From the UHGV virus genome UHGV-0079174: a stretch of DNA of 12,456 bases; one strand, written 5' to 3'. Both the position numbers and the translations under genes were made by a program. The DNA comes from a virus. Shown piece by piece: positions 1-12,456 of this stretch. The notes beneath the pieces were generated by a model. That model did not search any database and was not told the DNA's origin. It saw nothing but the letters and a program-made list of their open reading frames with translations. How positions within the stretch are numbered: position 1 is the stretch's first letter; every line of letters starts with the position of its first letter.

Positions 1-187
1 CATGTACCGGAACTTTAGGTTTTTTTCGTTGAGCGTCGCGAATAGCTTCACTGTGTGGACGTGCTGCATGAACCGGGCGGCTGTCTAAGATTAGCAAGGT
101 CTAAATACACCTCCAGTTTCAGATGGTTCCTAAAGGTGATGCTTGTGGTTATGATAGACAGAAAGATAAGACTTCCGAGGGTTAGCT

Positions 188-1021
188 ATGAGTGATGGGT
201 GGTTAGATTCTACTATGCAAGCAATAAACGATAGGATTAAAAGCCCATTATGGGGATATATCATTCTTGCATGGGTATGGTTCAACTGGCCTAACTTAGC
301 AATGCTCTTTATGAGTGATGCGCCTGTTAAGTTTCGAATAGATTATATACTATCTCAGGAATATTTTTACGCTCATTATCTGCTTGCTCCTGTCTTTTTT
401 GGAGGTGTGCTAGCTGTTATTACTCCTTATGCTCAATGGTTACTTTCTCTTGCTCAAAAATGGGCTACAGATAAACACAATGAAAATGTTTATCTTACAA
501 AGGAAAAAGAATACTTGGATTCAATCAGGTTAACGGGGTTAAAGGTTCGGGCTGCCAGAGAAGAAGAGAAAGAAAATGCTAAAATTGATGCTGATATTAA
601 AGCGGAAGTAGAGCGTGGTAAGCGTGAAGAGCTGGTCACAGAAGAGCTACAGACAGAGAAGAAACTGATTCAGAAAGAAATTAATAATTTAAAGCAGTTA
701 GTATCTAAAGAAAAACAAACCATTGAAAATATCGAGATAGAAAAAGAGAGACTACAGGATTTGATTGTTGCCTCACTTGAGGTAATGGATGATTTCTTTA
801 AAGTTGATAATAGCCATTCATTACAGCAATTGAAGAGTAGGGTAGAAGAACTTTTAACAGTTTCTGATATTGAAGCTTCTACCATACGTAACGCGCTACG
901 ACAAAAGAAAGAGCTAACTTCATCACAGACAATGAAAATGTTCGATATGGTAGAGGCTAAAATTAAAAAGGAAAAAGAAAAAGGTAATAATATAGAGTCG
1001 AATGAATTAATTAACCAATAA
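188..1021 (+). CDS. Hypothetical membrane protein: two N-terminal hydrophobic helices followed by a long charged coiled-coil-like C-terminal region
   Basis: 277-aa ORF from the track. ATG at 188 preceded by GAGGG (177-181). Hydrophobic segments WGYIILAWVWFNWPNLAMLF and HYLLAPVFFGGVLAVITPYAQWLLSLA, then an E/K-rich heptad-like sequence. No catalytic motif recognised. Confidence 0.6.
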   Translation: MSDGWLDSTMQAINDRIKSPLWGYIILAWVWFNWPNLAMLFMSDAPVKFRIDYILSQEYFYAHYLLAPVFFGGVLAVITPYAQWLLSLAQKWATDKHNENVYLTKEKEYLDSIRLTGLKVRAAREEEKENAKIDADIKAEVERGKREELVTEELQTEKKLIQKEINNLKQLVSKEKQTIENIEIEKERLQDLIVASLEVMDDFFKVDNSHSLQQLKSRVEELLTVSDIEASTIRNALRQKKELTSSQTMKMFDMVEAKIKKEKEKGNNIESNELINQ

Positions 1022-1061
1022 TGCTATGCCTGTAAATAACAGGACATAAACAGGTTAGTAC

Positions 1062-1309
1062 CTATGCAATTTAACGGTATTTTTCCAAGTATCTATGCAA
1101 TCCTACACAGATTCTATACAGTATCGACATAGCCCCTTTTTATCATAACTTATTGAAATATATAGAGAATCTGTAAATCCTCTTTTCAGGGTAAACTGTA
1201 TCGTGTTAGTCGTTCCTCTCTCGACACTACATACAGTGCTATATACAGGACTATATAACGGTGTCTATGCAGTTGGTCACTATCAATATTCCCTTAAAGT
1301 GACTATCAA
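1062..1309. repeat. Cluster of short direct repeats (iteron-like) in non-coding DNA
   Basis: CTATGCAAT at 1062-1070 and 1093-1101 (31 bp period); CTATGCAG at 1265-1272; GT(C/G)ACTATCAA at 1276-1286 and 1299-1309 (23 bp period). No ORF in the supplied track in this stretch. Confidence 0.4.
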
Positions 1310-1457
1310 GCTACTTAATAGTTTCCTATATGAAAGTTAGGAGGCGATAGTTATAGTTCCTTCGTAGTTCCCCTTAAAAAATCACTTAGAGACATCTTAA
1401 TCTATATGCAGATTTCACGTAGAACACGATTAGTGCGTAAAACAGCTATTATGTTAA

Positions 1458-1486
1458 AAACACACTGTGTTTATATCAGTACTGAT
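1458..1486. promoter_or_regulatory. Two adjacent palindromes, operator-like
   Basis: AAACACA-C-TGTGTTT (1458-1472, 7-bp arms) and a perfect 12-bp palindrome ATCAGTACTGAT (1475-1486), 2 bp apart. Confidence 0.3.
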
Positions 1487-1637
1487 TTATAAGGGTTTTG
1501 TGTATTGGCTGATAAGAGGCTATACAGCACCTTGAGAGCATGTCTTATAAGTCATTGACACATAAGGTCACAGAAGTTTGTAGCTGTTACAGAGAAAACT
1601 GGATAGGACTTCACAGAATTATAAAATGTTACAGCTA

Positions 1638-1665
1638 TTGATAGATGAAATCTTCTTGATAGATG
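1638..1665. repeat. Exact 10-bp direct repeat TTGATAGATG x2
   Basis: Copies at 1638-1647 and 1656-1665, 18 bp period, in non-coding DNA. Confidence 0.4.
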
Positions 1666-1916
1666 CTTTGAAGTGTGGTTAAGGTTTCTTGAGGTGGAGT
1701 TAACAGATGCCATGAAGAAAGTCAATAATTGGTTATAGATATTTTAACTGCTTTTGCAAAGGGGGGAGCTATATCGTGAATCTGGGGCACTTAACAGCCA
1801 TCAATTGAGTGTAGATATTTTTGAAGATTATCGGTGAAGGGGAATGTAGAGGGGTTACTACGATATTTATAAAAATTTTCAGACTCTGAAAAGTTACTGT
1901 ACAGATTTTATACAAA

Positions 1917-1940
1917 CTAAAAAGGACTCCCGAAAGAGTC
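1917..1940 (-). terminator. Candidate intrinsic terminator on the minus strand
   Basis: Stem GGACTC (1923-1928) / GAGTCC (1935-1940), 6-nt loop. On the minus strand the hairpin is followed by TTTTAGTTTGT. No T-tract follows it on the plus strand. Confidence 0.3.
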
Positions 1941-1975
1941 CCTATAAGTCGATTTTTAACGTGGCTACGACAATC

Positions 1976-2029
1976 CACCCATACCGCACCAAACCTTACC
2001 CCACCGAACCGCACCCTACACGACCTTAC
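1976..2029. repeat. C-rich (plus strand) / G-rich (minus strand) imperfect tandem repeat
   Basis: CCGCACC occurs twice and CCTTACC twice within about 55 bp (roughly CACC..ACCGCACC..CCTTACC repeated). Compositionally unlike the flanking AT-rich DNA. Confidence 0.3.
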
Positions 2030-2550
2030 CTCGCCGGACACTGCCATAGAGAGTGTGCTTGGTTGCTTTGGAAGTAAACCTAGTACAGTAAGCCATTATA
2101 CATATCGAGATAGTAACGTCAAGAAACTTTTAACAGGAGGGGTTCCTATGGTCACATATTCCCTCTCTTCCCACTAAGTAAGTCTTAGCAGCACCTAAGC
2201 AACAATTGACTAACAGGTTCGGTAGAGTCTATCTCATAGGTCAACTTCATAAACTCAGAGTTAAGTTACCTTGAAAGATTCTACCAAGAAACTACACAGG
2301 TGTTATTTAGTCTGACTGTGAAGGGATATTTAACGGGAGGAGAGATACGATATAACCCGAAGGGAGAGTATCATCTTAACAATTATCTTAAGAATAAAAC
2401 TGAAAAGTTCTTAACAGATGACTACCTAGAAAGAAGGGAACGATAAGACCAGAGGTAGTGACCTTGTTAAACAGGCTGTTTCAAAGCTCTTAAGAGTCTG
2501 TTAAGTAAGGGCTATGTGAACAATCTTACCATTTTGTCAATGCTTTTGTC

Positions 2551-2596
2551 TTTAGCAAAAAGTGCTAAACTTAACAAAAAGCACTAAATGCTAAAG
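2551..2596. promoter_or_regulatory. Repeat and inverted-repeat cluster just upstream of the methyltransferase gene
   Basis: TTTAGCA (2551-2557) / TGCTAAA (2563-2569) inverted repeat; 15-mers CAAAAAGTGCTAAAC (2556-2570) and CAAAAAGCACTAAAT (2575-2589); AAATGCTAAAG at 2586-2596 recurs at 3716-3726, and a related AAATGCTA lies in the promoter spacer at 4181-4188. Confidence 0.3.
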
Positions 2597-2634
2597 AGAC
2601 GATTAAGAAATATACTAAGAGGGGCGCTTCGCTT

Positions 2635-3303
2635 GTGTCACATCCAATAATCAATGTTGGTCGTTATCATGGTGGTTCTGATGACTGGCGTACACCGTAT
2701 CGTTTATTTCATAATCTGCATCGTGAGTTTAACTTCAGTCTAGATGGCGCTGCAACTGAGCATGACGCATTGTTGCCACGGTTCACCGATGATATTCACA
2801 ATCAATCATGGGTTGGTGAACGGGTCTTCGTTAACCCGCCGTTTAGCATGGCTGAAAAGTTCCTCTTAAAAGCCCCTGAAGCTGATGTGTGTGTATGTCT
2901 GGTTCCGCTCAGGTCAAAGACAACTTACTGGCTTCGGTGTGTATATACAAACCCCTTCCTGCATGAGATTCGAACGTTGCACCGAGCAGTCAAATACCTT
3001 CCACCAGCAGGAAAGAGAGGTGTTGTAGTGCGCTCACCGTTTCCAAGTTGCGTTTTGATATACAGGAACACACCCCGCAAACCGAAAGTTGAAGTTACCC
3101 AGACAATCTATTGTGGTGACACAATGCTTTTACTTGCCGTGGTTAACAGGGGTGGTTTACGTGGAAGACCTCATATGCACAATGCACAGACGCTTGACAG
3201 GTTGATTAAAATGTATGACCAAGGGCAACCCATCAAGAGCATCGCAGAATCGCTAAGAATGCCTCTAAGCACCACTTACAGGATTGTTCAAAGGTTGGGC
3301 TGA
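2635..3303 (+). CDS. Phage Dam-family DNA N6-adenine methyltransferase with C-terminal helix-turn-helix extension
   Basis: 222-aa ORF, GTG start 9 nt after AAGAGGGG. N-terminal DDWRTP, then VFVNPPFS (N/DPPY/F-type catalytic motif) and LVPLRSKTTYW...SPFPS, the pattern of phage Dam-type orphan methyltransferases. The last ~40 aa (GQPIKSIAESLRMPLSTTYRIVQRLG) read as a resolvase/Hin-type HTH. Family assignment is from motif memory, not a search. Confidence 0.7.
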   Translation: MSHPIINVGRYHGGSDDWRTPYRLFHNLHREFNFSLDGAATEHDALLPRFTDDIHNQSWVGERVFVNPPFSMAEKFLLKAPEADVCVCLVPLRSKTTYWLRCVYTNPFLHEIRTLHRAVKYLPPAGKRGVVVRSPFPSCVLIYRNTPRKPKVEVTQTIYCGDTMLLLAVVNRGGLRGRPHMHNAQTLDRLIKMYDQGQPIKSIAESLRMPLSTTYRIVQRLG

Positions 3304-3350
3304 AGTTCTCATATAGAGCACTGATTACGAGAATGTTAAAGATGCGATTT

Positions 3351-3541
3351 CCCCTTTCTGGGGTTATTCGCTTTTTACTGGAAGGGTTATTTTACAGAGG
3401 TTTTTCAAACCCCCTCAATAATAGAAACGAGCAACAAACGAAGAGCGAGAAATAAAAATATTGAGACTGGTGAACGGGGGTCTGTAAAGATTGTTTAAGA
3501 AGTCGGTTAAGAAGGTGGCTCTCCCTGTCTGGGGTTATCGC
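3351..3541. repeat. Direct repeat CCCT..TCTGGGGTTAT(T)CGC x2, about 171 bp apart
   Basis: CCCCTTTCTGGGGTTATTCGC (3351-3371) and CTCCCTGTCTGGGGTTATCGCC (3522-3541), in DNA with no ORF in the supplied track. Confidence 0.35.
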
Positions 3542-3768
3542 CTTGTGTCTTAGTGAGTCTTGAAAGTTCTCTGTGAAGAGTCTTGTCAGTCCTTTATATT
3601 GGCTAATTACAACTCATTGAAAAAATAAGCATTTTTAGAAATTACTGTCAGAGGGGTGAATACTTGATAGATACAGCTTTCCGGTTCTGTCAAGCTATTT
3701 ATTAATGGATAGCACAAAATGCTAAAGATACCCCTATACCATCACGTACAGGGGGTTTTGAAGGGAGT

Positions 3769-4026
3769 TTAACGGGGTTCTGTGTGGTCGTTATCCTTAA
3801 GGTCAAGCGTCCATGTACGACCGAACAGTTTAAAGACAACAAGCACTCTGACGAGGACGTAGCGAAGTAGCAGACCTGCAATCAGCCCAACACCTCCACC
3901 AGCCCATACATCAGGTGACCCCAGCTCAGGAGGGAGATTTACCATTAGTTTTCCTTGTAAGACGCTCTCAATCGCATTCTGACACAAAAAAGTACCTGAC
4001 CTTATATGTTGACCTGAAGAGGCCAT
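3769..4026 (-). CDS. Hypothetical small protein with one hydrophobic segment; coding status uncertain
   Basis: 85-aa minus-strand ORF with hydrophobic stretch GGGVGLIAGLLLRYVLVRVLVVF. A candidate minus-strand promoter lies upstream (4126-4155). Weak ribosome-binding site. Confidence 0.3.
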   Translation of the reverse strand: MASSGQHIRSGTFLCQNAIESVLQGKLMVNLPPELGSPDVWAGGGVGLIAGLLLRYVLVRVLVVFKLFGRTWTLDLKDNDHTEPR

Positions 4027-4125
4027 TTAACTCGTTACAGAGCGATTGAAGAGGTCTGTGTGCAATGCAATAACCATGCGGCCATTCTCATAGCCACGCC
4101 TCATATTTTACTCTCCCATAAACCC

Positions 4126-4155
4126 ATTATACCACAGATGTTAATAAAATGTTAA
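4126..4155 (-). promoter_or_regulatory. Candidate sigma70-type promoter on the minus strand, divergent from the plus-strand promoter
   Basis: On the minus strand: -35 TTAACA (plus 4150-4155), 18-bp spacer, -10 TATAAT (plus 4126-4131). Confidence 0.3.
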
Positions 4156-4161
4156 AAATGC

Positions 4162-4190
4162 TTGACATTAGTCTTTGAAAATGCTAGTAT
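4162..4190 (+). promoter_or_regulatory. Sigma70-type promoter (first of two matching promoters)
   Basis: -35 TTGACA (4162-4167), 17-bp spacer, -10 TAGTAT (4185-4190), followed by TGTATATATAGG (4191-4202), which is identical to the 12-mer after the second promoter. First gene starts 51 nt downstream. Confidence 0.55.
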
Positions 4191-4240
4191 TGTATATATA
4201 GGTTAACACAGAATTAACAATTATAAGGACTAGCTTATGA

Positions 4241-4795
4241 ATGAGAGACGCAGAATTTAGAGCGATGCTTCAGGCATCGAGACAACGTAACAGATACAAC
4301 TCCTACAGCTACACAGACACCCCCACCAGCTACGAATTACCCAAGCTCACCCAAAAAGAACGCAAAGGCATTGACGAAGTAATTCGGGCAATTACACCGA
4401 GGGAACGTTATATGCCAACCAGAAAGAGCACGAAGAACAGCATCAAAAATTATTTGAATAACTTCGACAGCTATGAGCAACTACCAAGTAAGCTTGATGA
4501 TATTTTCATTGGATTCTGTAGAAGTGAAGGCCACCCGAAATACAACAAAAAACTATTTTATCTTCTAAAGAATCTTGACGAAATTAACGCATCCAGCGTG
4601 ACAAATCGTCTTCAGCGTCAAGCAACCAGACTTAGCTACGAATTACCAACCGATGCCTATTGTGCATTGCTTGCTGTAATGTGTGCAAAGCTAATTGGTA
4701 TTGTTGAACATCATATTGCCGTTGGTAATATTGAGCCAATGGAAAACGAGCAACCAGACTTTGAGTTTGACCCGTATATTTTGGAGGAATTTTAA
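4241..4795 (+). CDS. Hypothetical protein with acidic C-terminal tail
   Basis: 184-aa ORF, ATG at 4241 preceded by TAAGGA. C-terminal EPMENEQPDFEFDPYILEEF. No recognisable domain. Confidence 0.55.
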   Translation: MRDAEFRAMLQASRQRNRYNSYSYTDTPTSYELPKLTQKERKGIDEVIRAITPRERYMPTRKSTKNSIKNYLNNFDSYEQLPSKLDDIFIGFCRSEGHPKYNKKLFYLLKNLDEINASSVTNRLQRQATRLSYELPTDAYCALLAVMCAKLIGIVEHHIAVGNIEPMENEQPDFEFDPYILEEF

Positions 4796-4796
4796 A

Positions 4797-5078
4797 ATGG
4801 GAAATAAACACACATTAACCAGAGTTACAAAGACAGCCTTTGAAGAGCTTAACCGAATCAAAAACATTACAGGTCTGCCACACTCAGCAGTGATGAAGCT
4901 TGCAATTAACCGTGATATTAACGAACAAGATTTGCTTAATAGTCGCTTAGAGGCAGCAAGACACCATATCAGGATTAAGCAAGATGACCTTGATAGTCTG
5001 AAATATTTAAATGCTTTTGGACTGGATTTAGCAAGGTTACTAAGCATCAAAATTCACAAATTAGCGATGGAGGTTTAA
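4797..5078 (+). CDS. Small protein, possibly a ribbon-helix-helix DNA-binding protein
   Basis: ATG at 4797 sits 9 nt after GGAGG (4783-4787) and 1 nt after the upstream stop; the track's 4695 start would overlap the upstream gene by 100 nt. N-terminus KHTLTRVTKTAFEELNRIKNITGLPHSAVMKLAI resembles a strand-helix-helix pattern. Fold call is tentative. Confidence 0.5.
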   Translation: MGNKHTLTRVTKTAFEELNRIKNITGLPHSAVMKLAINRDINEQDLLNSRLEAARHHIRIKQDDLDSLKYLNAFGLDLARLLSIKIHKLAMEV

Positions 5079-5464
5079 TGTATGACTTTTATAAACATCG
5101 TGACCATTTGGTAAGATTTGACGGTAAAGTCTGGAAAGACGTAACACAAACCAATAAACCCAAGTTTACCCACCAGCAATTAGCCTCAAGATTTGATATC
5201 TGGACTGAAGCACAAAAAGATAATGGTGATTTCGAGTTTATCAGAGGTTTTGATTATTCTTACGAAGACGACCTTAAAGACGCCATTAAATTAATTGAGA
5301 ACTTCAACTCTATTAAAAATGGTGACAAGCACAAAGCCAACGGTAACAGATACGATAAAGATTTAATCATTGATGCAATCACCAAAGGACAATCACAAAG
5401 TTATATTTCTGAGAAATACGGCTTATCACGTAGTCAATACTACAAGATTAAAGCGTCTGTGTAA
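5078..5464 (+). CDS. Hypothetical protein with C-terminal helix-turn-helix
   Basis: 128-aa ORF. Its ATG overlaps the upstream stop (TAATG at 5076-5080), indicating translational coupling. C-terminal DAITKGQSQSYISEKYGLSRSQYYKIK is the same resolvase-type HTH flavour as the methyltransferase C-terminus. Confidence 0.6.
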   Translation: MYDFYKHRDHLVRFDGKVWKDVTQTNKPKFTHQQLASRFDIWTEAQKDNGDFEFIRGFDYSYEDDLKDAIKLIENFNSIKNGDKHKANGNRYDKDLIIDAITKGQSQSYISEKYGLSRSQYYKIKASV

Positions 5465-5476
5465 GTCTGTGAGAAT

Positions 5477-5523
5477 GAGTGAGACTCAAAGATGAGCTAC
5501 CCTATTACTAAGGTGTCTCACTC
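5477..5523. promoter_or_regulatory. 9-bp perfect inverted repeat GAGTGAGAC / GTCTCACTC separated by 29 bp
   Basis: Arms at 5477-5485 and 5515-5523, between two genes. No T-tract follows, so it is more likely a binding site or RNA structure than a simple terminator. Confidence 0.3.
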
Positions 5524-5602
5524 CCTCTGTAACCCGCATGGTTACTGGCCTCAGGATGGCTATTTTGGCAGATTTAAGATGTGTTTTTAGAGGATTTTAA
5601 AA

Positions 5603-5926
5603 ATGAATAATTTCCCGCTACAGATTTTCGTTGATAGCGACACCGCTCTGATGATTCAGGCTTTCAGTGATTCCGGTGTATCAATTGACTTTGATAAATT
5701 ACTAAAGCTAATGGCTGATAACTCAGAAACAATTGAAGATTTTATTCAGGAAATTGAAACTGGTGACCCACGTTTTATGTTTCCCGTTACCGACTCAAAC
5801 ATGAAGCGCCTTATTATTGAGGAAACTAACCGATACAGCGTTAGCCCTGAAAAATATCTCAAGGCGGCTATAGTAATTTTGTACGCTGACAATGTTTTGG
5901 TTACGGATTCGAAGGTGGTGCATTAA
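5603..5926 (+). CDS. Hypothetical acidic protein
   Basis: 107-aa ORF, ATG at 5603 preceded by AGAGGA (5589-5594). Confidence 0.55.
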   Translation: MNNFPLQIFVDSDTALMIQAFSDSGVSIDFDKLLKLMADNSETIEDFIQEIETGDPRFMFPVTDSNMKRLIIEETNRYSVSPEKYLKAAIVILYADNVLVTDSKVVH

Positions 5927-5991
5927 TGGAATTGGTGATTATCTGTTTTGTATTGATTGGTATGATTGCAGGTGCATCTATTAAAGTATAA
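5926..5991 (+). CDS. Candidate 21-aa hydrophobic micro-protein MELVIICFVLIGMIAGASIKV
   Basis: ATG overlaps the upstream stop (TAATG at 5924-5928). Almost entirely hydrophobic, one predicted transmembrane helix. Below the ORF-track size threshold. Confidence 0.3.
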   Translation: MELVIICFVLIGMIAGASIKV

Positions 5992-6015
5992 ATGTTACCA
6001 ATCTGTTAAAAGCTG

Positions 6016-6044
6016 TTGACAAATAACCTTGAGCATGACATAAT
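6016..6044 (+). promoter_or_regulatory. Sigma70-type promoter (second of two matching promoters)
   Basis: -35 TTGACA (6016-6021), 17-bp spacer, -10 CATAAT (6039-6044), followed by TGTATATATAGG (6045-6056). Confidence 0.55.
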
Positions 6045-6146
6045 TGTATATATAGGGAGAGCAATTCTCCTTGAATTAAAATATTAATCATTCTACATCG
6101 ATGATAACTATATTCTGAGTTGGAAAGGTGCAATGCTTTTCGCTAC

Positions 6147-6175
6147 ATGACCTCTTATATAACTTGAGAGGTCAT
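6147..6175 (+). promoter_or_regulatory. Hairpin in the long leader (9-bp stem ATGACCTCT / AGAGGTCAT, 11-nt loop)
   Basis: Perfect 9-bp inverted repeat about 100 nt downstream of the predicted start site. No T-tract follows. Confidence 0.35.
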
Positions 6176-6234
6176 CTCGAAAAGTCTTTGTTCATTCATT
6201 GAATCCTTTAGATGTTCTTTAATTTCTTCACCTT

Positions 6235-6270
6235 AGCCCTTTATAGCGTTTTAGTTATCTAGGGCTTTTT
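6235..6270 (+). terminator. Terminator-like hairpin inside the leader (possible attenuator)
   Basis: Stem AGCCCT (6235-6240) / AGGGCT (6261-6266), 20-nt loop, then TTTT (6267-6270). Lies about 190-220 nt downstream of the promoter and about 110 nt before the first gene. The long loop weakens the call. Confidence 0.3.
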
Positions 6271-6378
6271 CAGCTTTTAAAAAGCATACATGGCAAACGC
6301 TTTTAAGTCTCTTCTAAGTTCGTAGGCTGTCAGGTGTGCTTTTTAAAAACTGAATATTACTTAGAAGAGGAAAATGAA

Positions 6379-7086
6379 ATGGAAAATCTATATATTAGCG
6401 GTAGAAAGGTTGATAGCTTCGGTGACTGGTCGCCACAGACTGAACATCCAGCTATCACTATTCAGCGTAAAGAACACGATGAAAGAATTAAGCTTGAGCA
6501 ATCGTTAAAGATGTCACCAAAGGTAATTTCCTTTGTGTCTCCTGAGCCTCAAGAAATGCCAGATATCTGCAAAAGTGAAGCACTATTTAATCTTGAGCGT
6601 GAATATTACCCACAGTTAAAAGCACAGCGTATTAAACTTGATGACGCTTACAGCAAAGTTACCCTGATGCAATCAGCTATTGAGCCGTCAGAATTTGAGA
6701 TTCAGGATGAATTGTCACAGAAACCATTTGTCTATTACAAATATGAAGACAATGATGGTTTTGGTACTTTTCCTGAGAATATCCCAGACGTGATTAATAA
6801 TCTTTCTGACGGATATCGAATTGTGAAGATGGTTAAGGCATCAAGAGGTGCTGGTCAGTTTATTTACATGACTAATAAGAGCGATGAAGAACTCGCTGAA
6901 CTTGCTAGACAGAACATCTTGGCATCACGTAACAAGCAGCTTGATAGTGCTAAGTTGTATCTCTCAAGAGAGCTTCAGGCTATGAAAGAGCTTGTTAGTG
7001 AATATGAGTCGCAGAAGAAGGTTGCTATGCAGGCTGATATTGAGCAGCTTACGAAGATTTCTAGCAAATATGCAAAAGCTATTTGA
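6379..7086 (+). CDS. Hypothetical protein with C-terminal coiled-coil-like region
   Basis: In-frame ATG at 6379 preceded by GAGGAAAA (6367-6374); the track's GTG at 6334 has no ribosome-binding site. 235 aa from 6379. No recognisable domain. Confidence 0.55.
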   Translation: MENLYISGRKVDSFGDWSPQTEHPAITIQRKEHDERIKLEQSLKMSPKVISFVSPEPQEMPDICKSEALFNLEREYYPQLKAQRIKLDDAYSKVTLMQSAIEPSEFEIQDELSQKPFVYYKYEDNDGFGTFPENIPDVINNLSDGYRIVKMVKASRGAGQFIYMTNKSDEELAELARQNILASRNKQLDSAKLYLSRELQAMKELVSEYESQKKVAMQADIEQLTKISSKYAKAI

Positions 7087-7094
7087 GGTGATTA

Positions 7095-7403
7095 ATGAGT
7101 GATTTAACAGAACGCGATAAAAGAATTAAAGGGGTGATGGAACCTTTTGAAGATAGGTTCAATGAAATTAAAACGACTCTTGGTGATATTCAGGAGGTCA
7201 CTGAATATCTTATTGGTCGTATGGACGAAAAGCCTCTTGCCGAACTAAAGTTTGAGGGTCGAGATGATTTAACCTTCCTTATTAGAGACCTCAAGCGAGA
7301 TGTAGGACGGCTTGAATCTATCTTTGATAAAGCTGGTCTCTCAATACGTTACGAAATTGTAAAGAATGAACGCGGTGTAAAGTGCATTCACTTCTTGGAG
7401 TGA
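7095..7403 (+). CDS. Hypothetical small acidic protein
   Basis: 102-aa ORF. Extended Shine-Dalgarno GAGGTGAT (7085-7092) before ATG 7095. N-terminus MSDLTER. Confidence 0.55.
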   Translation: MSDLTERDKRIKGVMEPFEDRFNEIKTTLGDIQEVTEYLIGRMDEKPLAELKFEGRDDLTFLIRDLKRDVGRLESIFDKAGLSIRYEIVKNERGVKCIHFLE

Positions 7404-7425
7404 AAATTGAATTATGAGGTGATGA

Positions 7426-7632
7426 ATGATTGATTTAACAGAACGCTATGAACTCATCAGGGCAATTAGCGAACGATTGAAAGAACAACCCAACAAACCA
7501 AAACGAATCAAATCATCCACCTCTAAGCAAAATAACAGAATCAGAAGAATCGCTAAATGGTGTCTTGATAAATTACCAAGTGATTGTCAGATTGTCGGTG
7601 AAGATGGCAATTATTATCTTGTCAGACATTAA
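7426..7632 (+). CDS. Hypothetical small basic protein
   Basis: 68-aa ORF. GAGGTGAT (7416-7423) before ATG 7426. N-terminus MIDLTER. Its first ~37 bp are near-identical to the start region of the gene at 7095. Confidence 0.5.
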   Translation: MIDLTERYELIRAISERLKEQPNKPKRIKSSTSKQNNRIRRIAKWCLDKLPSDCQIVGEDGNYYLVRH

Positions 7633-7658
7633 AAAGAATTGGTTGGGTAAAAATCAAC

Positions 7659-7699
7659 GGGAGAGATTATCGAGTGACATCGGTAGCTCTCCCTTTTTT
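7659..7699 (+). terminator. Candidate intrinsic terminator
   Basis: Stem GGGAGAG (7659-7665) / CTCTCCC (7687-7693) followed by TTTTTT (7694-7699). The 21-nt loop is long for a canonical terminator. Confidence 0.4.
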
Positions 7700-7814
7700 G
7701 TATATGTGCTACGTGATGATTCGGATAAGAATTATCCTCATGAAATCTGTAAAGCTAATACCCACACTGAAAAATAGAATTTACGTACAACACGCTTAAA
7801 GAGGTGAAACATGA

Positions 7815-9863
7815 ATGAGCAAATTCACAGTTGATAGTTTTATCGTTGAACTAGGCTTCAATGAGAACGTTATTAAAGGTCTGCAAAAAGTTGAAAAGGC
7901 AGCTTTGCAGTCAGCACAAAGAATTGAACGTAATTTGAATAGAGCGTTTAAGGTCGATACCAAGCAACTTGACAGTAATTTAACGGCTTCTTTAAAGTCA
8001 ATGGAAGGGAAGATTAATAAGACCTTTGACCGTCTGGAAGCTAGAGCAAAAAATACTAAAGCTTTCCGTTTCACAAGTCAGGTTAATGACGCTATTAATC
8101 CTCCAAAACAACCAAGACAGCCACGAATTAGCGGAAACAGAGCAATCACAGCAGCTTATTCAGCTAATATGAGCAAGCTGAAAGGTCTTAACCCAATTGT
8201 CGAGAAATACATTAAGAGTCAGTTTTACGCATTAAGTAGTAAAGCTGGTCAGATGGATAACACCAAGTTTAATGAAGCCCTCGCTAAACTAAATTCAAGT
8301 GTACGAGAAGCAATTGCTAAAGCCAGAGGTCATACATCCACCAGCATTAACGGTGACAGAGCAGCTAGCAGTCTTGATAGTCTGTCTTCAGCAGCAGTTA
8401 AAACAGCAGGTGCATTTATCAGCTTTCAGGCTGTACTATCCGCTTATCAGCGAGTAATGGAAGTTGGCCTTCAACGTGCATCATCGGAAAGAAGTATTGA
8501 TTTCGTATTCGGTGACCAAAGTACACAGGTTAAAAAGTTCATTCAAGATTTAACTCAAATTACTGGTATGGACACAACCGAAACACAAGCACAATTTGCT
8601 TCATTTGGTGCATCTGCAACGACTACGATGGGTCTTGAAGGGTCAGAAGAGTTATTTAAAAACCTTACAGGTTATGCTCGTTTAATGGGTCGTTCAGATG
8701 AGCAGATTCAAAGAGCATTAACCGCAGTGTCACAGATGGCCTCTAAGGGTCAGGTGATGGCTGAGGAGTTGAAGGGGCAATTATCTGAAGCTTTGCCGGG
8801 TGCTACTCAGGCATTTGCAAAGGCTTTAGGTCTGACTGAAAAACAACTTTTCGATAAGATGAAAAATGGTGATGTTAAAGCCTCTGATGCACTTCCTAAG
8901 TTTGCTAAAGAACTTGGTGCACAGATTAATTCAAGAGGTGGCTGGAAAGCTATTCAGGACTCTACGCAGACAATGTTAGGGAACTTAAAGAATACCTGGA
9001 ATAACTCACTAACGGATATTTTCAGAGGTTCTGAAAATGGTCTGCAAGATTTTACACGAAGCCTAACAACGCTTTTAAACAGTTTAGGTGGAAGTGGTAA
9101 AAGTCTTGGTGAATCTCTTGGTAGCTTGATGACTGATATGTCGCATGGTGTGGATAGCCTGACCGATATCAGTTACAGAGTGAGAGCTTTCTTTGATGAG
9201 GTGACATTGGCTTACCGTGGTTTAACCGATGAGCAAAAGAAAGTAGTTGATGCTTTAGGTTCTGGCTTGATTAATAGTTTAAAAGTCTTGGCTGGTGTTA
9301 TTGCTGTAAATAAAGTTGTTGGTGTAACCAGAAGTATTTACGGGCTTATGACTGCTATCACAAGATTAGGTCAGGTCGCTGATACAACAGCGGATAACGT
9401 GAATAGAAAGAACGGGAAACCATCAAGGTTTAATCTTGGGAATATGCTATTAGCTGGTAGTGCTATCTATGCAGGTTATGAGAGATTAGCTTCTACGCCT
9501 GAACGAATGGAAGCACAAGCTAAATTACCAGAGCTGGCTAAAGAGTCTGGACTTAAGCCAGTATTTACTATGGACGATGTGAAAGGTTGGTTTAATAGTG
9601 CTGCTATGAATCTTGCTAACTTCCAGCATCCAGAATTAATCACCATGAGACAAGATGCGGCATTAACGAATACGGATATCCAAAGCCTGAGAGATGAAAT
9701 TAGTGCTTTGAGCAAACGTATTCAGGAGCCTGTGAAAGTTTCACTTGGTGGTGAAGTTGCCATTAAACCAGATGAAACCAGCTTTATGACCTTTAGCAGT
9801 AATATCTACGACCAATACGCAGAAGCTACGCTATTAAGTTCATCATTCCCAGAAGATGATTGA
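7815..9863 (+). CDS. Tape-measure-like protein (phage tail length tape-measure domain)
   Basis: 682-aa ORF, AAGAGGTGA before ATG 7815. Central segment KGQVMAEELKGQLSEALPGATQAFAKALGLTEKQLFDKMKNGDVKASDALPKFAKELGAQ matches the conserved tape-measure domain pattern from memory. A/S/G/L-rich helical composition with internal hydrophobic segments. Confidence 0.6.
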   Translation: MSKFTVDSFIVELGFNENVIKGLQKVEKAALQSAQRIERNLNRAFKVDTKQLDSNLTASLKSMEGKINKTFDRLEARAKNTKAFRFTSQVNDAINPPKQPRQPRISGNRAITAAYSANMSKLKGLNPIVEKYIKSQFYALSSKAGQMDNTKFNEALAKLNSSVREAIAKARGHTSTSINGDRAASSLDSLSSAAVKTAGAFISFQAVLSAYQRVMEVGLQRASSERSIDFVFGDQSTQVKKFIQDLTQITGMDTTETQAQFASFGASATTTMGLEGSEELFKNLTGYARLMGRSDEQIQRALTAVSQMASKGQVMAEELKGQLSEALPGATQAFAKALGLTEKQLFDKMKNGDVKASDALPKFAKELGAQINSRGGWKAIQDSTQTMLGNLKNTWNNSLTDIFRGSENGLQDFTRSLTTLLNSLGGSGKSLGESLGSLMTDMSHGVDSLTDISYRVRAFFDEVTLAYRGLTDEQKKVVDALGSGLINSLKVLAGVIAVNKVVGVTRSIYGLMTAITRLGQVADTTADNVNRKNGKPSRFNLGNMLLAGSAIYAGYERLASTPERMEAQAKLPELAKESGLKPVFTMDDVKGWFNSAAMNLANFQHPELITMRQDAALTNTDIQSLRDEISALSKRIQEPVKVSLGGEVAIKPDETSFMTFSSNIYDQYAEATLLSSSFPEDD

Positions 9864-9875
9864 TAATAGTCGAAT

Positions 9876-9930
9876 GCTACGTGAAATCTCCTGAACAGAT
9901 ATACCCACCAAAAATTATTTTTCACGTAGC
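9876..9930. promoter_or_regulatory. 11-bp perfect inverted repeat GCTACGTGAAA / TTTCACGTAGC separated by 33 bp
   Basis: Arms at 9876-9886 and 9920-9930, between the tape-measure-like gene and the next gene. TTTCACGTAG also occurs at 1413-1422. Confidence 0.35.
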
Positions 9931-10020
9931 TCACGCTTAACAGATAAAACACTTAAATATCAAAGGCTTGGTTAAAAATGATTAAAATACACTAAGTCTT
10001 TGAAATCAAAGGAGAATATA

Positions 10021-10794
10021 ATGATTTACACTAATCAACTTCGTTACAGTGGCAAAGATGGTATCTATTTCCACTTAAGAGATAATGTAGATGCCTTCTT
10101 AACCTTATCAGCAACTGAAAACATGGAATTTGACAGCCCTATGCAGGTGACTACACAGAACATGCAATCAGGGCAAACCGTAACAGATAACGTGCAAAGA
10201 GCACCCAGAACAATCACTATTAGTGGTGTCGTTGTAGTTGGCTATGAAGGAAGCTTATTATTAACTCGTCAGGGTCAATTAGTAGAAAATTTCATCGACA
10301 CTCTTGAAAGCTGGCGTGACCAGAAGCAGATTATTTCTGTCATCTGTCGAGACGGTATCAAAATTGATGATTCCATTATTACGAGTTTTAAAGCCTCTAA
10401 AGATGTTGGAATTTCAAATGGTCTAAGAATCCAGCTAACTTTTCAGGAAATTAACTTCAAAGCCATTGTGGGTCAGACTGATATCTCTGCTGCAACTGGA
10501 AAGACCGCTACCACAAATGATGGTGGTGCTACTTCTAAGAAAAATACGGGTAACACTACGACAAGTCTAGGTAATGGTATGTTGATGTGTCAGGAGCTAT
10601 ATAATCGCTCTACGAGTGAACTCACTAATGAGCAACTTCAAGCCCGTATCAATTGTGGTAGAAGTGTCAAAGTTGAGAACGGAAAAAGCACCTTCTCAGA
10701 TGCCGCTAATGAGCAAGCTTCGAAAGTGCTTAGTAATGCTGGTACAGGTAGTACTTTGAAGAAATTTTCTGTAAATCCTAACAAGCGATACTGA
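10021..10794 (+). CDS. Hypothetical protein, possibly tail-associated by position
   Basis: ATG at 10021 sits 6 nt after AAGGAG (10009-10014); the track's TTG at 10000 is less likely. 257 aa from 10021. C-terminal third is T/G/N/S-rich low complexity. Function is inferred only from lying immediately after the tape-measure-like gene. Confidence 0.5.
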
Positions 10795-10808
10795 CGATAG
10801 AATCTCAA

Positions 10809-12332
10809 CTATATGATAACCTCATCAACATCTATTAAACCCCTCTCAGTGACTTCAGAAAGCGACTGTATAGCCTCTGTAACGTCCTCTGAGGGGTTTT
10901 CTGTTATTGATAGGTCAATTACCTTACCGTTGTGAAAACTTACTTTACAGCGACGTTTAGCAGTATTTAAAACGACCTCTTTAACAGCACTTTTGATTAT
11001 CAGTTGTGCTTCAATCCTTCCCGCCTTTGTAGTCAAGTCACAATCAGACAAACAACCAACATCAATAGATTTAAGGCGTTGTGTCTCCTTCTCGATATCC
11101 GCATCAACCTGTGATAGCTCACCTTTTAACTGCTTTAGTTTGATGGTAATAGCTGACAAATCTTCAATTTCAAGTGATAGCTGTACCAGCTTTTCAATAT
11201 TGCTTGAGATGTGTTCACGGTGTAGCTTCAGCGTATCTATGGTATTCGTCATATCGCTATCAAATCGGTCAAGACGAGATAGCAGGGTAAGTAATGTACC
11301 ATCAGTTTGCTTACGTGAAAGTCCTTTAGCACTACAACGGTTTTCATTACGAAGGGGACAACGATAAATCCCGCTTCTTGTATCGCTAAAGCCTGTGATA
11401 ATCAAAGCATGACCACATTCAGAACAACGGATAACACCTTTGAAAAGATTCACAGCCATTGGCTTATCTGAAGCAGGTTTTCTACCGTAACGAGAATATG
11501 ATAGTTGTTGAACTTTGTAGAATGTTGTTTCATCTATAATTGCAGGATAATAACCAGCTATCTCCTCACAGCCTTTAGGTGTGAAGTAACCAATTACAGA
11601 GCGATTTTTCAGAAGGTCTTGTACTGAGGTTTGACCAAATGAACCCGCTTTATATTGGTTAAGCGTCTGGTGACCTTCATCATTAAGAGTCCTGACAATC
11701 TCCCAGATAGACTTACCCTCTAACCGTAGCTGAAAGCACCTCTTCACAGTCTCCACTTTCTCAGGGATTACAGAGAAGCTTTTACGGTCATCATTAAGCT
11801 TAAGCCATGCAGGACAACGTTTAGAAATCTTGATACCTTCAGAGATGAGTTCTTTTTTACGGTTCCATGCAGCTTGTATACGCTCAGACTTCCTCAAACT
11901 CTCCTCATGCGACCGCTGCATTATCAGAATGCTTTTAATCAGAGCTAACGGGTCTTTAAGAGATTCTCGTGTGTAATGTTCACCATCGGACAAGGTGACC
12001 ACATCTACACCAGAGCGAAGAATGTTTCTGAGTAGCTCACTTGCTTGGTCTACATCTTGACGTGACAGACGGTCAAGAGATTCTATCAAGAGCGTATCAC
12101 CAGCTTTAACAAGCCCTTTCTCGATAGCGGTTAAAAAGTCACCTAAGCCACCTTTCAAGTGCTTACCAGTGAACCCACTCACCCCCAAATCACGGAAGGA
12201 TAAATCTTGGTCAAGGTAGTACTCAGGATGAGCCTTAAGCCAGTCATTAACCATCTTAGACTGTCTGCGTAGTGAGTCGCCTTTGGCTTGTCGCTCAGAA
12301 CTGAATCTGATGTAGCTGATTACACGTTTCAT
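10809..12332 (-). CDS. Large serine recombinase (probable integrase of the element)
   Basis: 507-aa ORF. N-terminal resolvase-type catalytic domain with YIRFSSERQ (nucleophile-serine motif, compare YIRVSTEEQ), a Cys-rich zinc-ribbon-like segment CSECGH...YRCPLRNENRC, and a C-terminal coiled-coil region. This is the domain order of phage-type large serine integrases. Confidence 0.85.
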   Translation of the reverse strand: MKRVISYIRFSSERQAKGDSLRRQSKMVNDWLKAHPEYYLDQDLSFRDLGVSGFTGKHLKGGLGDFLTAIEKGLVKAGDTLLIESLDRLSRQDVDQASELLRNILRSGVDVVTLSDGEHYTRESLKDPLALIKSILIMQRSHEESLRKSERIQAAWNRKKELISEGIKISKRCPAWLKLNDDRKSFSVIPEKVETVKRCFQLRLEGKSIWEIVRTLNDEGHQTLNQYKAGSFGQTSVQDLLKNRSVIGYFTPKGCEEIAGYYPAIIDETTFYKVQQLSYSRYGRKPASDKPMAVNLFKGVIRCSECGHALIITGFSDTRSGIYRCPLRNENRCSAKGLSRKQTDGTLLTLLSRLDRFDSDMTNTIDTLKLHREHISSNIEKLVQLSLEIEDLSAITIKLKQLKGELSQVDADIEKETQRLKSIDVGCLSDCDLTTKAGRIEAQLIIKSAVKEVVLNTAKRRCKVSFHNGKVIDLSITENPSEDVTEAIQSLSEVTERGLIDVDEVII

Positions 12333-12361
12333 TCTTTACCACCATAAAAACTAATAGCGCG

Positions 12362-12390
12362 ATTGTATCGCTTTAGGTGGTGTATTTAAA
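12362..12390 (-). promoter_or_regulatory. Candidate promoter for the recombinase gene
   Basis: On the minus strand: -35 TTTAAA (plus 12385-12390), 17-bp spacer, -10 TACAAT (plus 12362-12367). The -10 overlaps the palindrome GCGAT-TGT-ATCGC (12359-12371). Confidence 0.25.
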
Positions 12391-12456
12391 CGTGTCTGAT
12401 GAAAATCACCCGATTAACGCCGCGCTGATGTAAACCGCGATTAAGCGTTTGTTCCT

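What the first reader, a model, noticed from the sequence alone, without database searches (positions are those of the whole stretch)
6045..6378. A roughly 330-nt structured leader with a terminator-like hairpin ahead of the second cassette
The predicted start site is near 6051 but the first gene starts at 6379. The leader has a 9-bp hairpin (6147-6175), a terminator-like hairpin with U-tract (6235-6270) and an AT-rich palindrome GCTTTTAAAAAGC (6271-6283). This matches the layout of a phage late promoter with a short leader RNA and antiterminator-controlled read-through, or a riboregulator. No antiterminator gene is identifiable in the window.
Basis: partly seen in the sequence, partly recalled or inferred. 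Interest (0 to 1): 0.55.

Follow-up and report, generated by a model that had tools for sequence, protein, structure and literature searches.

The report
Structured leader gating a satellite's tail operon
The 330 bases between a strong promoter and the first gene of this E. coli island's tail-gene operon form a conserved non-coding RNA leader, with a terminator and a long hairpin whose loop can mask the gene's ribosome-binding site, so it very likely keeps the operon off until a signal arrives, probably phage infection.

Summary
The best sigma-70 promoter in the window (6016-6044) is followed by about 330 nt with no conserved ORF before the ATG at 6379. The leader folds far better than shuffles (z -5.2). 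Both reported hairpins exist. The "AT-rich palindrome" lies 2 nt off the stated position and is one arm of a 25-bp hairpin (6271-6295 with 6328-6352).

About 100 distinct relatives show a modular leader: a 5'-terminal hairpin, two conserved stem-loops, one or two hairpin-plus-U-tract terminators, then the long hairpin. That hairpin occurs in five unrelated sequence versions. Its loop is complementary to the Shine-Dalgarno region of the next gene, and loop and SD switch together between two families (CUUCUAAGU/ACUUAGAAG; UUCACCUCU/AGAGGUGAA).

The window is a roughly 12-kb serine-recombinase island. Its Dit-like gene is 92% identical in DNA to a Felix O1-like virulent phage gene. No paper in the searched library describes the island. 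The leader has no Rfam match.

Best reading: a two-layer OFF switch, termination plus SD masking. The activating signal is unknown and no antiterminator gene was found. A 15-nt match between the loop and the phage tape-measure ribosome site is a lead only.

The parts
6016..6044 (+). Sigma-70 promoter: -35 TTGACA 6016-6021, TG 6036-6037, -10 CATAAT 6039-6044. Predicted start about 6050-6052. Upstream 5984-6015 is also nearly invariant.
   Evidence: Best promoter match in the window. Nearly invariant in protein-found relatives and in islands at other chromosomal sites. The start site is predicted, not mapped.
6053..6073 (+). H1: hairpin at the 5' end of the transcript (8 bp here, loop GCAAU).
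   Evidence: At least 6 stem versions keep pairing (GGGAGA/UCUCC, GGAAGA/UUUUCC, GGGAAGA/UCUUCC, AGAGAG/CUCUCU, GGAAA/UUUCC, GGGAG/CUCCC), including an exact inversion. The loop is not conserved.
6123..6141 (+). H2a: GAAAGGU-GCAAU-GCUUUUC, an invariant 7-bp stem-loop.
   Evidence: Invariant in the 9 protein-found relatives and in the divergent E. coli islands. 100% paired but with no variation, so the structure is not proven. The alternative pairing of GCUUUUCG with CGAAAAGU has a C.A mismatch in 18 of 29 sequences. In the loci fetched with this 20-mer, invariance is by construction.
6147..6175 (+).
   Evidence: Perfect inverted repeat. 99.4% of cells paired, with A-U/G-U/G-C exchanges at two pairs. 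Four or more different upper-stem and loop versions exist, including an inverted one.
6235..6271 (+). T2: intrinsic-terminator-like hairpin (outer AGCCCU/AGGGCU, inner AUAGC/GUUAU) plus a U-tract at 6266-6270.
   Evidence: dG -12.9 kcal/mol with 5 U. UAGGGC(U)UUU is conserved in the relatives, while the loop varies by up to about 30 nt of insertions or deletions. Most relatives carry an extra upstream terminator, GCCCUAAUCAUGAUUAGGGCUUUCUUU, which is deleted in this window.
6271..6352 (+). S1: long hairpin, arms 6271-6295 and 6328-6352 (25 positions, 1 mismatch, 3 G.U pairs), loop 6296-6327.
   Evidence: dG -29.7 kcal/mol. 20 aligned pairs are 99.2% paired and 8 pairs have changes on both sides; slid controls give 41-58%. 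Five unrelated arm sequences keep the hairpin. The G.U pairs would be A.C on the minus strand, so the plus-strand RNA is the folded species.
6309..6319 (+). Anti-Shine-Dalgarno word CUCUUCUAAGU in the S1 loop. Positions 6309-6323 are also a perfect complement of the phage VpaE1 TMP ribosome-site region.
   Evidence: 11 of 11 complementary to 6359-6369 (I7). In 96 unselected leaders the loop-to-TIR complementary run averages 9.5 nt, against 6.0 +/- 1.0 for shuffles. Loop and SD switch together in a second family. Phage match.
6359..6381 (+). Translation initiation region of the first operon gene: ACUUAGAAGAG (6359-6369), SD core GAGGA, ATG 6379-6381.
6379..10794 (+). The operon the leader controls: 235-aa protein (PGAP 'transposase', unsupported), 102-aa, 68-aa, tape measure protein 7815-9863, Dit-like protein 10021-10794.
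   Evidence: The Dit-like gene is 92% identical in nt and 82% in aa to Felixounavirus ORF066. The TMP is 29% identical in aa to the phage TMP.

Best explanation
Positions 6045-6378 are the non-coding 5' leader of the island's tail-gene operon. It acts as a two-layer OFF switch on the plus-strand RNA.

(1) A near-consensus promoter starts a transcript that opens with a stabilising 5' hairpin and two conserved stem-loops. Most transcripts then end at the hairpin plus U-tract at 6235-6270. Most relatives have two such sites in tandem. This leaves a structured RNA of about 215 nt.

(2) Transcripts that read through form a 25-bp hairpin immediately after the U-tract. Its loop word CUCUUCUAAGU pairs with ACUUAGAAGAG, which covers the Shine-Dalgarno region. 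The result is a loop-to-tail pseudoknot that blocks ribosome loading on the first gene.

Expression of the operon (tape measure and Dit-like proteins related to those of Felix O1-like virulent phages) would therefore need both read-through and unmasking. Both probably happen on phage infection.

Shown: the promoter match, absence of a conserved ORF, conservation, the helices and their compensatory changes, and loop-SD complementarity with a coordinated switch.

Inferred: that the hairpin plus U-tract actually terminates, that the loop-SD pairing forms and represses, and the nature of the trigger (a phage- or island-encoded antitermination factor, RNase III cleavage of the long stem, or titration of the loop by phage mRNA).
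For: - The promoter is the best in the window.
- The leader fold has z -5.24.
- No ORF is conserved across leaders.
- There is no Rfam hit, so this is not a known riboswitch or sRNA.
- Positions 6001-6200 are among the most conserved stretches of the island.
- The leader is modular but always has the same order of parts in about 100 distinct relatives from three chromosomal sites and from metagenomes.
- Terminators: dG -8.5 to -16.8 kcal/mol with U-rich tails; two in tandem in 59 of 84 leaders.
- Long hairpin: 99.2% paired, 8 compensatory pairs, slid controls 41-58%, five sequence versions, G.U pairs specific to the plus strand.
- Anti-SD: an 11-nt perfect complement in the window. The mean run is 9.5 nt in 96 unselected leaders against 6.0 +/- 1.0 for shuffles. 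Loop and SD change together, from CUUCUAAGU/ACUUAGAAG to UUCACCUCU/AGAGGUGAA. The second loop word resembles the 3' end of 16S rRNA (resemblance recalled from memory).
- No terminator separates the upstream operon from this promoter, so T2 also insulates the two operons.
Against: - There is no transcript data: the start site, the 3' end and the short RNA are all predictions.
- The simple terminator scan did not call T2.
- 11 of 24 single-terminator relatives have a broken U-tract, UAUUC, so termination may be leaky or dispensable.
- Within each family the loop word and the SD hardly vary. The covariation for the anti-SD helix therefore rests on essentially one family-level switch.
- In the window, the loop-SD pairing has to form as a pseudoknot across a 25-bp stem with only 8 and 6 linker nucleotides. 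This is sterically tight (my geometric estimate, not computed).
- The most conserved element, H2a, has no assigned role.
- Most relatives were fetched with an exact 20-mer from H2a. Their invariance there is by construction, and the sample is almost all Escherichia.
Confidence: 0.6

Rival explanations
1. The promoter-proximal part (6050 to about 6270) is mainly a free-standing small RNA gene. Its product acts in trans on host, island or phage targets. The downstream operon is expressed only by incidental read-through.
For: The RNA has a strong promoter, a 5' hairpin, an invariant H2a/H2b core and its own terminator or terminators. This module is the best conserved part, and it recombines freely with different downstream hairpin types and first genes. 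A satellite sRNA acting on both satellite and phage genes has been reported for Vibrio PLE (abstract listed).
Against: No significant complementarity was found between the H1-H2b module and the Felixounavirus VpaE1 genome, and no counterpart exists there. No promoter is predicted between T2 and the gene, so the operon depends on this transcript. This rival is compatible with the main explanation rather than exclusive of it.
Confidence: 0.2
2. The long hairpin is the precursor of an antisense RNA aimed at the helper phage, or a sensor of the phage. Its loop pairs with the ribosome-binding region of the phage tape-measure mRNA. This would either block phage TMP synthesis, or let abundant phage late mRNA titrate the loop and so unmask the island's own operon.
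For: Loop positions 6309-6323 are a perfect 15-nt complement of VpaE1 41993-42007, which lies 14-28 nt upstream of the TMP ATG. This was the best hit of the whole leader against the phage. The same phage sequence is identical in 21 of 28 Felixounavirus contigs. Predicted duplexes of type I loops are stronger with the phage site (-27 kcal/mol; 12-15 nt perfect) than with their own site (-19; 9-12 nt). The island carries its own TMP and the neighbouring phage gene.
Against: A 15-nt exact match somewhere in the phage genome is not rare: P = 0.125 in 2000 dinucleotide shuffles. Eleven of the 15 nt follow from the resemblance between the island's own ribosome site and the phage TMP site; only 4 nt are extra. 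Type II loops match the phage over only 10 nt, and family-B loops carry a generic anti-SD word instead. The phage site lies in coding sequence and is constrained for that reason. There are no expression or infection data.
Confidence: 0.12
3. The repeats are DNA-level sites (operators for a repressor or activator, or recombination/packaging sites) rather than RNA structures.
For: Hairpin tops are found exactly inverted in some relatives (H1 in L004/L010, H2b in L061), which shows DNA-level palindrome dynamics. H1 sits right at the start site, where an operator could lie. A TTAAAAGCTG word upstream of the -35 box is complementary to the S1 5' arm in type I leaders (I8).
Against: Every long-hairpin version contains 3 G.U pairs that would be A.C mismatches in DNA or on the minus strand. 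Arm sequences are replaced wholesale while pairing is kept, and no sequence motif persists as an operator would need. The 3' partner of the loop word is always the SD region. H1 moves 29 nt away from the promoter in 14 of 84 relatives.
Confidence: 0.05
4. Chance structure in AT-rich spacer DNA with no function.
For: The region is AT-rich (35% GC). Promoter-like and terminator-like matches in the window as a whole are no more frequent than in shuffles.
Against: Fold z is -5.2. Conservation is higher than in the flanking genes. Pairing is retained through many independent sequence changes.
Confidence: 0.02

Closest known systems
Lambda PR' / 6S RNA / tR' late-gene control by Q antitermination (from established knowledge)
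   Same: A strong promoter lies immediately upstream of the structural genes. A leader of about 200 nt ends at an intrinsic terminator, and the genes beyond it need read-through.
   Different: No Q-like gene was found in the island. No convincing -10-like pause element was seen. A 29-nt cassette can sit between the -10 box and the leader. Terminators are often tandem. An added anti-SD layer is present. No DNA match to the phage collection.
HK022 put RNA, a cis-acting processive antiterminator (PMC9378689)
   Same: Two adjacent stem-loops (H2a and H2b) in the nascent leader, upstream of the terminators.
   Different: No sequence or profile similarity to the HK022 immunity region, where I expect putL and putR to lie (the record does not annotate them). 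H2a plus H2b span about 55 nt, against about 70 nt for put. The start is about 75 nt from the transcription start. Binding to RNA polymerase is untestable here.
P1/P7 c4 and P4 CI immunity RNAs (Rfam C4 family; from established knowledge)
   Same: A leader-encoded antisense word is complementary to the ribosome-binding site of a downstream gene on the same transcript. It is combined with premature termination and controls lytic or late functions of a phage or satellite.
   Different: No Rfam match at E up to 1. Here the word sits in the apical loop of a 20-30-bp hairpin directly upstream of its target. Processing into a separate RNA is unknown.
Translational operator pseudoknots (rpsO/S15, alpha-operon/S4, T4 gene 32; from established knowledge)
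   Same: A hairpin loop pairs with the downstream initiation region to trap or block the ribosome.
   Different: No protein ligand is known. The stem is much longer. The context is a mobile element.
RNase III-controlled leaders (lambda N leader, T7 early processing sites; from established knowledge)
   Same: 20 bp or more of near-perfect double-stranded RNA lies just upstream of a ribosome-binding site whose accessibility depends on that structure.
   Different: Cleavage was not tested. The resemblance is by shape only.
Vibrio cholerae PLE, a satellite of the virulent myophage ICP1 (papers listed)
   Same: A chromosomal island with a large serine recombinase, linked to a virulent myophage, with RNA-level regulation reported.
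   Different: No sequence relationship. This island carries tail genes (TMP and Dit-like). Satellite behaviour is not demonstrated.

Membership tests
Any Rfam 15 family (including C4 antisense RNA, riboswitches, known leaders) | Covariance-model match | tested here: not met
   cmscan of the whole window, both strands, found 0 matches at E up to 1.
Intrinsic (Rho-independent) terminator | Stable G+C-containing hairpin directly followed by a U-tract | tested here: met
   T2 has dG -12.9 kcal/mol and a UUUUU tail. Relatives range from -8.5 to -16.8 for T2 and -9 to -10 for T1, with 6 U in 8. The scanner's loop rule (8 nt or less) excluded T2.
Intrinsic (Rho-independent) terminator | Transcripts actually end there | not testable with these tools
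   No RNA-seq or term-seq data are available.
SD-sequestering (anti-SD) translational leader | Upstream segment complementary to the Shine-Dalgarno region | tested here: met
   11 of 11 nt between 6309-6319 and 6359-6369. Mean run 9.5 nt in 96 leaders against 6.0 +/- 1.0 for shuffles.
SD-sequestering (anti-SD) translational leader | Pairing maintained by compensatory change | tested here: met
   Two families have different loop words and matching SD regions. Within a family there are no double changes, so support rests on few events.
Lambda Q-type late antitermination | Q-family protein encoded next to the promoter | tested here: not met
   No Pfam, PHROG or NCBIfam antiterminator hit in any annotated island protein. 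The gene directly upstream encodes an acidic 107-aa protein. The 128-aa candidate has only a C-terminal HTH and no PDB fold match.
Lambda Q-type late antitermination | Fixed promoter-proximal pause or Q-binding geometry | tested here: inconclusive
   No clear -10-like element in the first 20 nt. A 29-nt insertion between the -10 box and H1 is present in 14 of 84 relatives, which argues against fixed geometry.
HK022 put RNA | Sequence or profile similarity to putL/putR | tested here: not met
   blastn-short gave only chance-length hits (13 nt or less), and nhmmer with the H2a/H2b profile gave none, in HK022 24000-30100. The put coordinates are not annotated in the record; I expect them to lie in that stretch.
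HK022 put RNA | Binds the RNA polymerase beta' zinc-binding domain and suppresses termination in cis | not testable with these tools
   Needs in vitro transcription.
Phage satellite (PLE/PICI/P4-like sense) | Integrase plus dependence on a helper phage for induction and packaging | tested here: inconclusive
   A large serine recombinase is present, and the island sits precisely inside yecE and at two other sites. Tail genes are shared with Felixounavirus. No capsid, terminase or replication gene was recognised. Induction and packaging are untested.

The most novel reading that the evidence does not exclude
The leader is an RNA-level link between a previously undescribed E. coli island and virulent Felix O1-like phages. 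The hairpin loop that masks the island's own ribosome site is also a perfect antisense to the phage tape-measure gene's initiation region. On infection, one of two things could follow. The phage late mRNA could titrate the loop and switch on the island's substitute tape-measure and Dit genes. Or the processed hairpin could silence the phage tape-measure gene. Either would be an RNA sensor/effector that couples a satellite's tail genes to the helper's late phase.
Probability: 0.12. Interest if true: 0.85.

Novelty: new variant of a known kind. Interest (0 to 1): 0.6.

Why it matters
If the model holds, this is a compact and widespread control element, present in about 8-9% of complete E. coli genomes. 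It combines tandem terminators with a hairpin-presented anti-SD and is absent from Rfam. It gates tail genes that an uncharacterised island shares with Felix O1-like phages, a group often cited as candidates for phage therapy and biocontrol (my background knowledge). The leader gives a direct experimental handle, through reporter fusions and loop/SD mutants, on how such an island stays silent and what the phage does to wake it. It could also reveal a PLE-like satellite or tail-interference defence in E. coli against virulent myophages. The five interchangeable hairpin versions with a constant architecture are a natural mutagenesis series for studying loop-to-SD pseudoknots.

Tried and rejected
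- Rfam at a permissive threshold: nothing.
- DNA search of the promoter and 5' module against 50,697 phage records: no match. The leader is therefore not a copy of a sequenced phage's late control region.
- Search of the VpaE1 genome for H1/H2a words, GCAAU-loop hairpins and an H2a/H2b profile: no counterpart.
- 'Twin GCAAU loops' (H1 and H2a) as a protein-binding pair: rejected, because the H1 loop is not conserved.
- H2a against the alternative lower stem GCUUUUCG/CGAAAAGU: the latter has a C.A mismatch in 18 of 29 sequences. H2a is preferred but unproven.
- Small ORFs in the leader on either strand: none conserved.
- Candidate regulators: PDB sequence searches of the 107-aa and 128-aa proteins found nothing. 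The AF2 model of the 128-aa protein (pLDDT 79) has no PDB fold match below E 0.6. Its homologues are restricted to Escherichia.
- Protein search for the 235-aa first gene: the list showed only relatives at 88% identity or more, labelled 'transposase', so no structure was attempted.
- 'The island's own TMP ribosome site escapes the loop': this holds for the window (-12 kcal/mol) but not in general (-8 to -23 kcal/mol across variants), so it was dropped.
- Genome-wide significance of the 15-nt phage match: not significant (P = 0.125).
- Looking for an excised or concatemeric junction in a virome contig (L013): the locus ends inside the island, so it is uninformative.
- Literature searches for the island, for a Felixounavirus satellite, and for the leader sequence itself: nothing found.
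- My first 84-leader set required the loop word. I corrected this with the unselected 99-sequence set.

Full report
OBSERVATION. The sequence is as described, with two corrections. The scan ranks TTGACA-17-CATAAT (6016-6044, with an upstream TG) as the best sigma-70 match in the window, 11 of 12. This predicts a start at about 6050-6052. The first annotated codon of the next gene is at 6379. The 9-bp hairpin 6147-6155/6167-6175 is perfect. The terminator-like hairpin pairs AGCCCT (6235-6240) with AGGGCT (6261-6266), has an inner 5-bp stem, and has dG -12.9 kcal/mol. It is followed by five U. The simple terminator scan missed it only because of its loop-length rule. The 'palindrome' GCTTTTAAAAAGC lies at 6273-6285. 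It is the 5' arm of a 25-position hairpin whose other arm is 6328-6352. The leader as a whole folds at -97 kcal/mol, against -68.9 +/- 5.4 for shuffles (z -5.24). It has no Rfam match at E up to 1.

CONTEXT. The window is an entire island of about 12.3 kb inserted inside yecE of E. coli. The same gene order occurs between ymdF and wrbA and between yciI and tonB in other strains. The common parts are a large serine recombinase at one end, a Dam-like methyltransferase, an operon of small proteins, the leader, and then an operon that ends in a tape measure protein (PF20155) and a Dit-like protein (PF21821). The leader region is found in 446-478 of 5,426 complete E. coli genomes, always on the chromosome.

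The Dit-like gene is 92% identical in DNA and 82% identical in protein to ORF066 of Felixounavirus phages, which are virulent Felix O1-like myophages. In the phage, ORF066 is the gene just after the tape measure gene. The island's TMP is 29% identical to the phage TMP. No other island protein matches the phage. I found no paper describing this island, or any satellite of these phages, in the library searched.

COMPARATIVE SET AND ITS BIASES. Nine relatives came from protein searches with the downstream gene. Four divergent E. coli islands came from BLAST. About 110 loci came from an exact 20-mer, GAAAGGTGCAATGCTTTTCG. Invariance of that 20-mer in the last group is by construction. It is, however, also invariant (one sequence has a 1-nt deletion) in the unbiased sequences. 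My first curated set of 84 leaders also required the loop word CTTCTAAGT. I corrected this later with the 99 unselected sequences. Nearly all sequences are from Escherichia, so many 'sequences' represent few evolutionary events.

ANATOMY. The leader is modular and the order of parts is constant.

(a) The promoter and 30 nt upstream of it are nearly invariant.

(b) H1 (6053-6073) is a hairpin starting 2-4 nt from the predicted 5' end. At least six stem versions keep 5-8 bp, one being an exact inversion. The loop is not conserved. This fits a 5'-terminal stabilising hairpin. The role is my inference.

(c) A variable spacer follows. In relatives it contains a (GGAT)2-5 microsatellite.

(d) H2a (6123-6141) is invariant, so its fold is unproven. 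H2b (6147-6175) is 99.4% paired, with A-U/G-U/G-C exchanges, and occurs in several different upper-stem versions.

(e) Terminators. 59 of 84 leaders have two hairpin-plus-U-tract sites. The window belongs to the 24 that lost the first site by deletion and keep T2. Of those 24, 11 have a broken U-tract.

(f) S1 begins directly after the U-tract. Twenty aligned pairs are 99.2% paired, and 8 of them have changes on both sides. Slid controls give 41-58%. Five unrelated arm sequences, types I to V, preserve a 20-30-bp hairpin. In the two commonest versions (types I and II) there are three G.U pairs that would be mismatches on the other strand; type III also has wobbles. The folded molecule is therefore the plus-strand RNA.

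(g) No ORF is conserved in the leader.

THE ANTI-SD LOOP. In the window, CTCTTCTAAGT (6309-6319, in the S1 loop) is a perfect 11-nt complement of ACTTAGAAGAG (6359-6369), which overlaps the Shine-Dalgarno sequence. I measured, in 96 leaders not selected for this feature, the longest perfect complementary run between the hairpin region and positions -28 to +3 of the first gene. It averages 9.5 nt (range 6-12). Shuffled upstream sequence gives 6.0 +/- 1.0, and only 1.9% of shuffles reach 9 nt. In nearly all of these leaders (one exception) the run joins the loop word to the SD region.

Thirteen leaders form a second family. There the loop reads UUCACCUCU or AUUCACCUC, which resembles the 3' end of 16S rRNA (resemblance recalled from memory). 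The SD region in that family reads AGAGGUGAA or GAGGUGAAU. Both partners have changed together. Within a family there is almost no variation. The covariation is therefore convincing in kind but rests on few events.

Because the loop lies inside S1 and the SD lies outside it, the pairing must form as a pseudoknot. Alternatively it forms after S1 opens or is cleaved. In the window the linkers are 8 and 6 nt across a 25-bp stem. By my estimate this is feasible but tight.

THE PHAGE CONNECTION. The best match of the whole leader to the VpaE1 genome is the loop. Positions 6309-6323 are a perfect antisense of 41993-42007, which lies 14-28 nt upstream of the phage TMP start codon. That phage sequence is identical in 21 of 28 Felixounavirus contigs. 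The island's own initiation region, ACTTAGAAGAG-GAAAATGAAATGG, resembles the phage TMP region, ACTTAGAAGAGCAGGAAAAATGTAATGG. Type I loops are predicted to bind the phage site more strongly than their own site, -27 against -19 kcal/mol.

There are four cautions.
- A 15-nt match somewhere in the phage occurs in 12.5% of dinucleotide shuffles.
- Only 4 nt go beyond what the shared initiation region already explains.
- Type II and family-B loops do not show the extension.
- The phage site is coding sequence.
I therefore treat this as a lead, not a finding.

MECHANISM. The best-supported reading is a two-layer OFF switch, termination plus SD masking, in front of the tail-gene operon. Tandem terminators at variable distances from the conserved 5' module do not overlap any conserved alternative pairing. 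This argues against a classical attenuator. If read-through is regulated at all, it points to a processive mechanism set up upstream, or to simple leakiness (inference).

No antiterminator is recognisable.
- No island protein gives a hit in Pfam, PHROGs or NCBIfam.
- The gene immediately upstream of the promoter encodes an acidic 107-aa protein.
- The basic 128-aa protein models as a small alpha/beta domain plus a helix-turn-helix and has no PDB fold match.
- There is no similarity to the HK022 put region.

The trigger is therefore unknown. The candidates are a phage factor, RNase III cleavage of S1, or titration of the loop.

RIVALS. A free-standing sRNA function for the 5' module is compatible with the data and cannot be excluded. 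No target was found in the phage. DNA-level operators are unlikely, given the strand-specific G.U pairs and the wholesale replacement of arm sequences. Chance is excluded by conservation and retained pairing.

COMPARISON WITH KNOWN SYSTEMS. The layout works like lambda PR'-6S-tR' (a terminated leader before late genes). It also works like the P1 c4 / P4 CI immunity leaders (a leader-encoded antisense to a downstream ribosome site, plus termination). The loop-to-initiation-region pairing resembles the rpsO and alpha-operon operator pseudoknots. The long stem resembles RNase III-controlled leaders. The leader is a member of none of these by the tests I could run: no Rfam hit, no Q or put features.

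VERDICT. The feature is real, conserved and non-coding. The antitermination interpretation is only partly supported. The newly found anti-SD hairpin is the best-evidenced functional element. Novelty: a new variant of known kinds of leader control, sitting in an island family that appears undescribed and is linked to virulent Felix O1-like phages. Interest 0.6.

Noticed in passing
window 1-12456 (island); L011, L124, L125, L126: The whole window is a serine-recombinase island of about 12.3 kb inserted in yecE. The same gene order occurs at ymdF-wrbA and yciI-tonB. No capsid, terminase, portal or replication gene is recognisable, and I found no publication on it. Its Dit-like gene (10021-10794) is 92% nt identical to Felixounavirus ORF066, and it carries its own TMP of 682 aa (742 aa in phage VpaE1). 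It may be a satellite of, or a tail-interference defence against, virulent Felix O1-like phages.
   Followed up: partly
window 1922-2122, minus strand: An 11-of-12 promoter (2122..2095) and a good terminator (1943-1922) bracket a predicted RNA of about 165 nt made of 10-nt-periodic G/U-rich repeats. The stretch 1948-2010 is 86% identical to two intergenic stretches of phage VpaE1 (59283-59345 and 58015-58076). It may be a phage-derived ncRNA or decoy. The only ORF called there (1769-2047) runs through the terminator.
   Followed up: partly
window 1040-1530: This unannotated stretch is the most conserved non-coding block of the island (0.89 identity at 1101-1200). It holds at least 8 copies of CTAT(A/G)CA(G/A)-type words (for example AGTACCTATGCAAT / AGTATCTATGCAAT). 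These are iteron-like and could mark a replication origin or a packaging site.
   Followed up: partly
window 5926-5991 (+); L011 8933-9010: An unannotated 21-aa hydrophobic ORF (MELVIICFVLIGMIAGASIKV) overlaps the stop of the 107-aa gene (TAATG) and ends 25 nt before the leader promoter. A different 25-aa hydrophobic peptide occupies the same position in the wrbA-site islands.
   Followed up: no
L007 1323-1360, L011 9070-9100; upstream of TMP in L011, L012, L018, L046 and others: A 29-nt hairpin cassette (GAGGATAGTCTTCTATCCGAAGTCTAT) is inserted either between the leader's -10 box and H1 or directly before the SD of the island TMP gene, in both cases next to a TGTATAT word. It may be a small mobile or recombinogenic element.
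   Followed up: no
L004/L010 (H1), L061 (H2b): The tops of two leader hairpins are exact reverse complements of the usual version (GAGCAATTCTC to GAGAATTGCTC; CCTCTTATATAACTTGAGAGG to CCCCTCAAGTTATATAAGAGAGG). These are stem-loop inversions that keep the structure.
   Followed up: partly
window 6379-7086: RefSeq/PGAP names this 235-aa protein 'transposase'. No Pfam, PHROG, NCBIfam or phage tblastn hit supports any function. More than 3,000 protein clusters (at 90% identity) match it. The name looks unfounded.
   Followed up: partly
window 4126-4190: Back-to-back strong promoter matches (minus strand 4155..4126, 11 of 12; plus strand 4162..4190, 10 of 12; both with TG) lie between a small minus-strand ORF and the plus-strand operon of small proteins. 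This is a likely genetic switch region of the island.
   Followed up: no
L128 (VpaE1) 41132-41148 and 23290-23352: The phage carries a sense copy (16 of 17 nt) of the leader loop word inside its tail-tube gene, about 860 nt upstream of the TMP ribosome site to which that word is complementary. One phage promoter (23290) is followed by the inverted repeat CTTCTAAATACTTAGAAG, made of the same words. Several phage promoters share the island promoter's A-tract plus GTTGTTGACA context.
   Followed up: no
window 7095-7403: This 102-aa gene has no counterpart in the four divergent islands compared (identity 0 in the alignment). It is an accessory insertion within the tail-gene operon.
   Followed up: no
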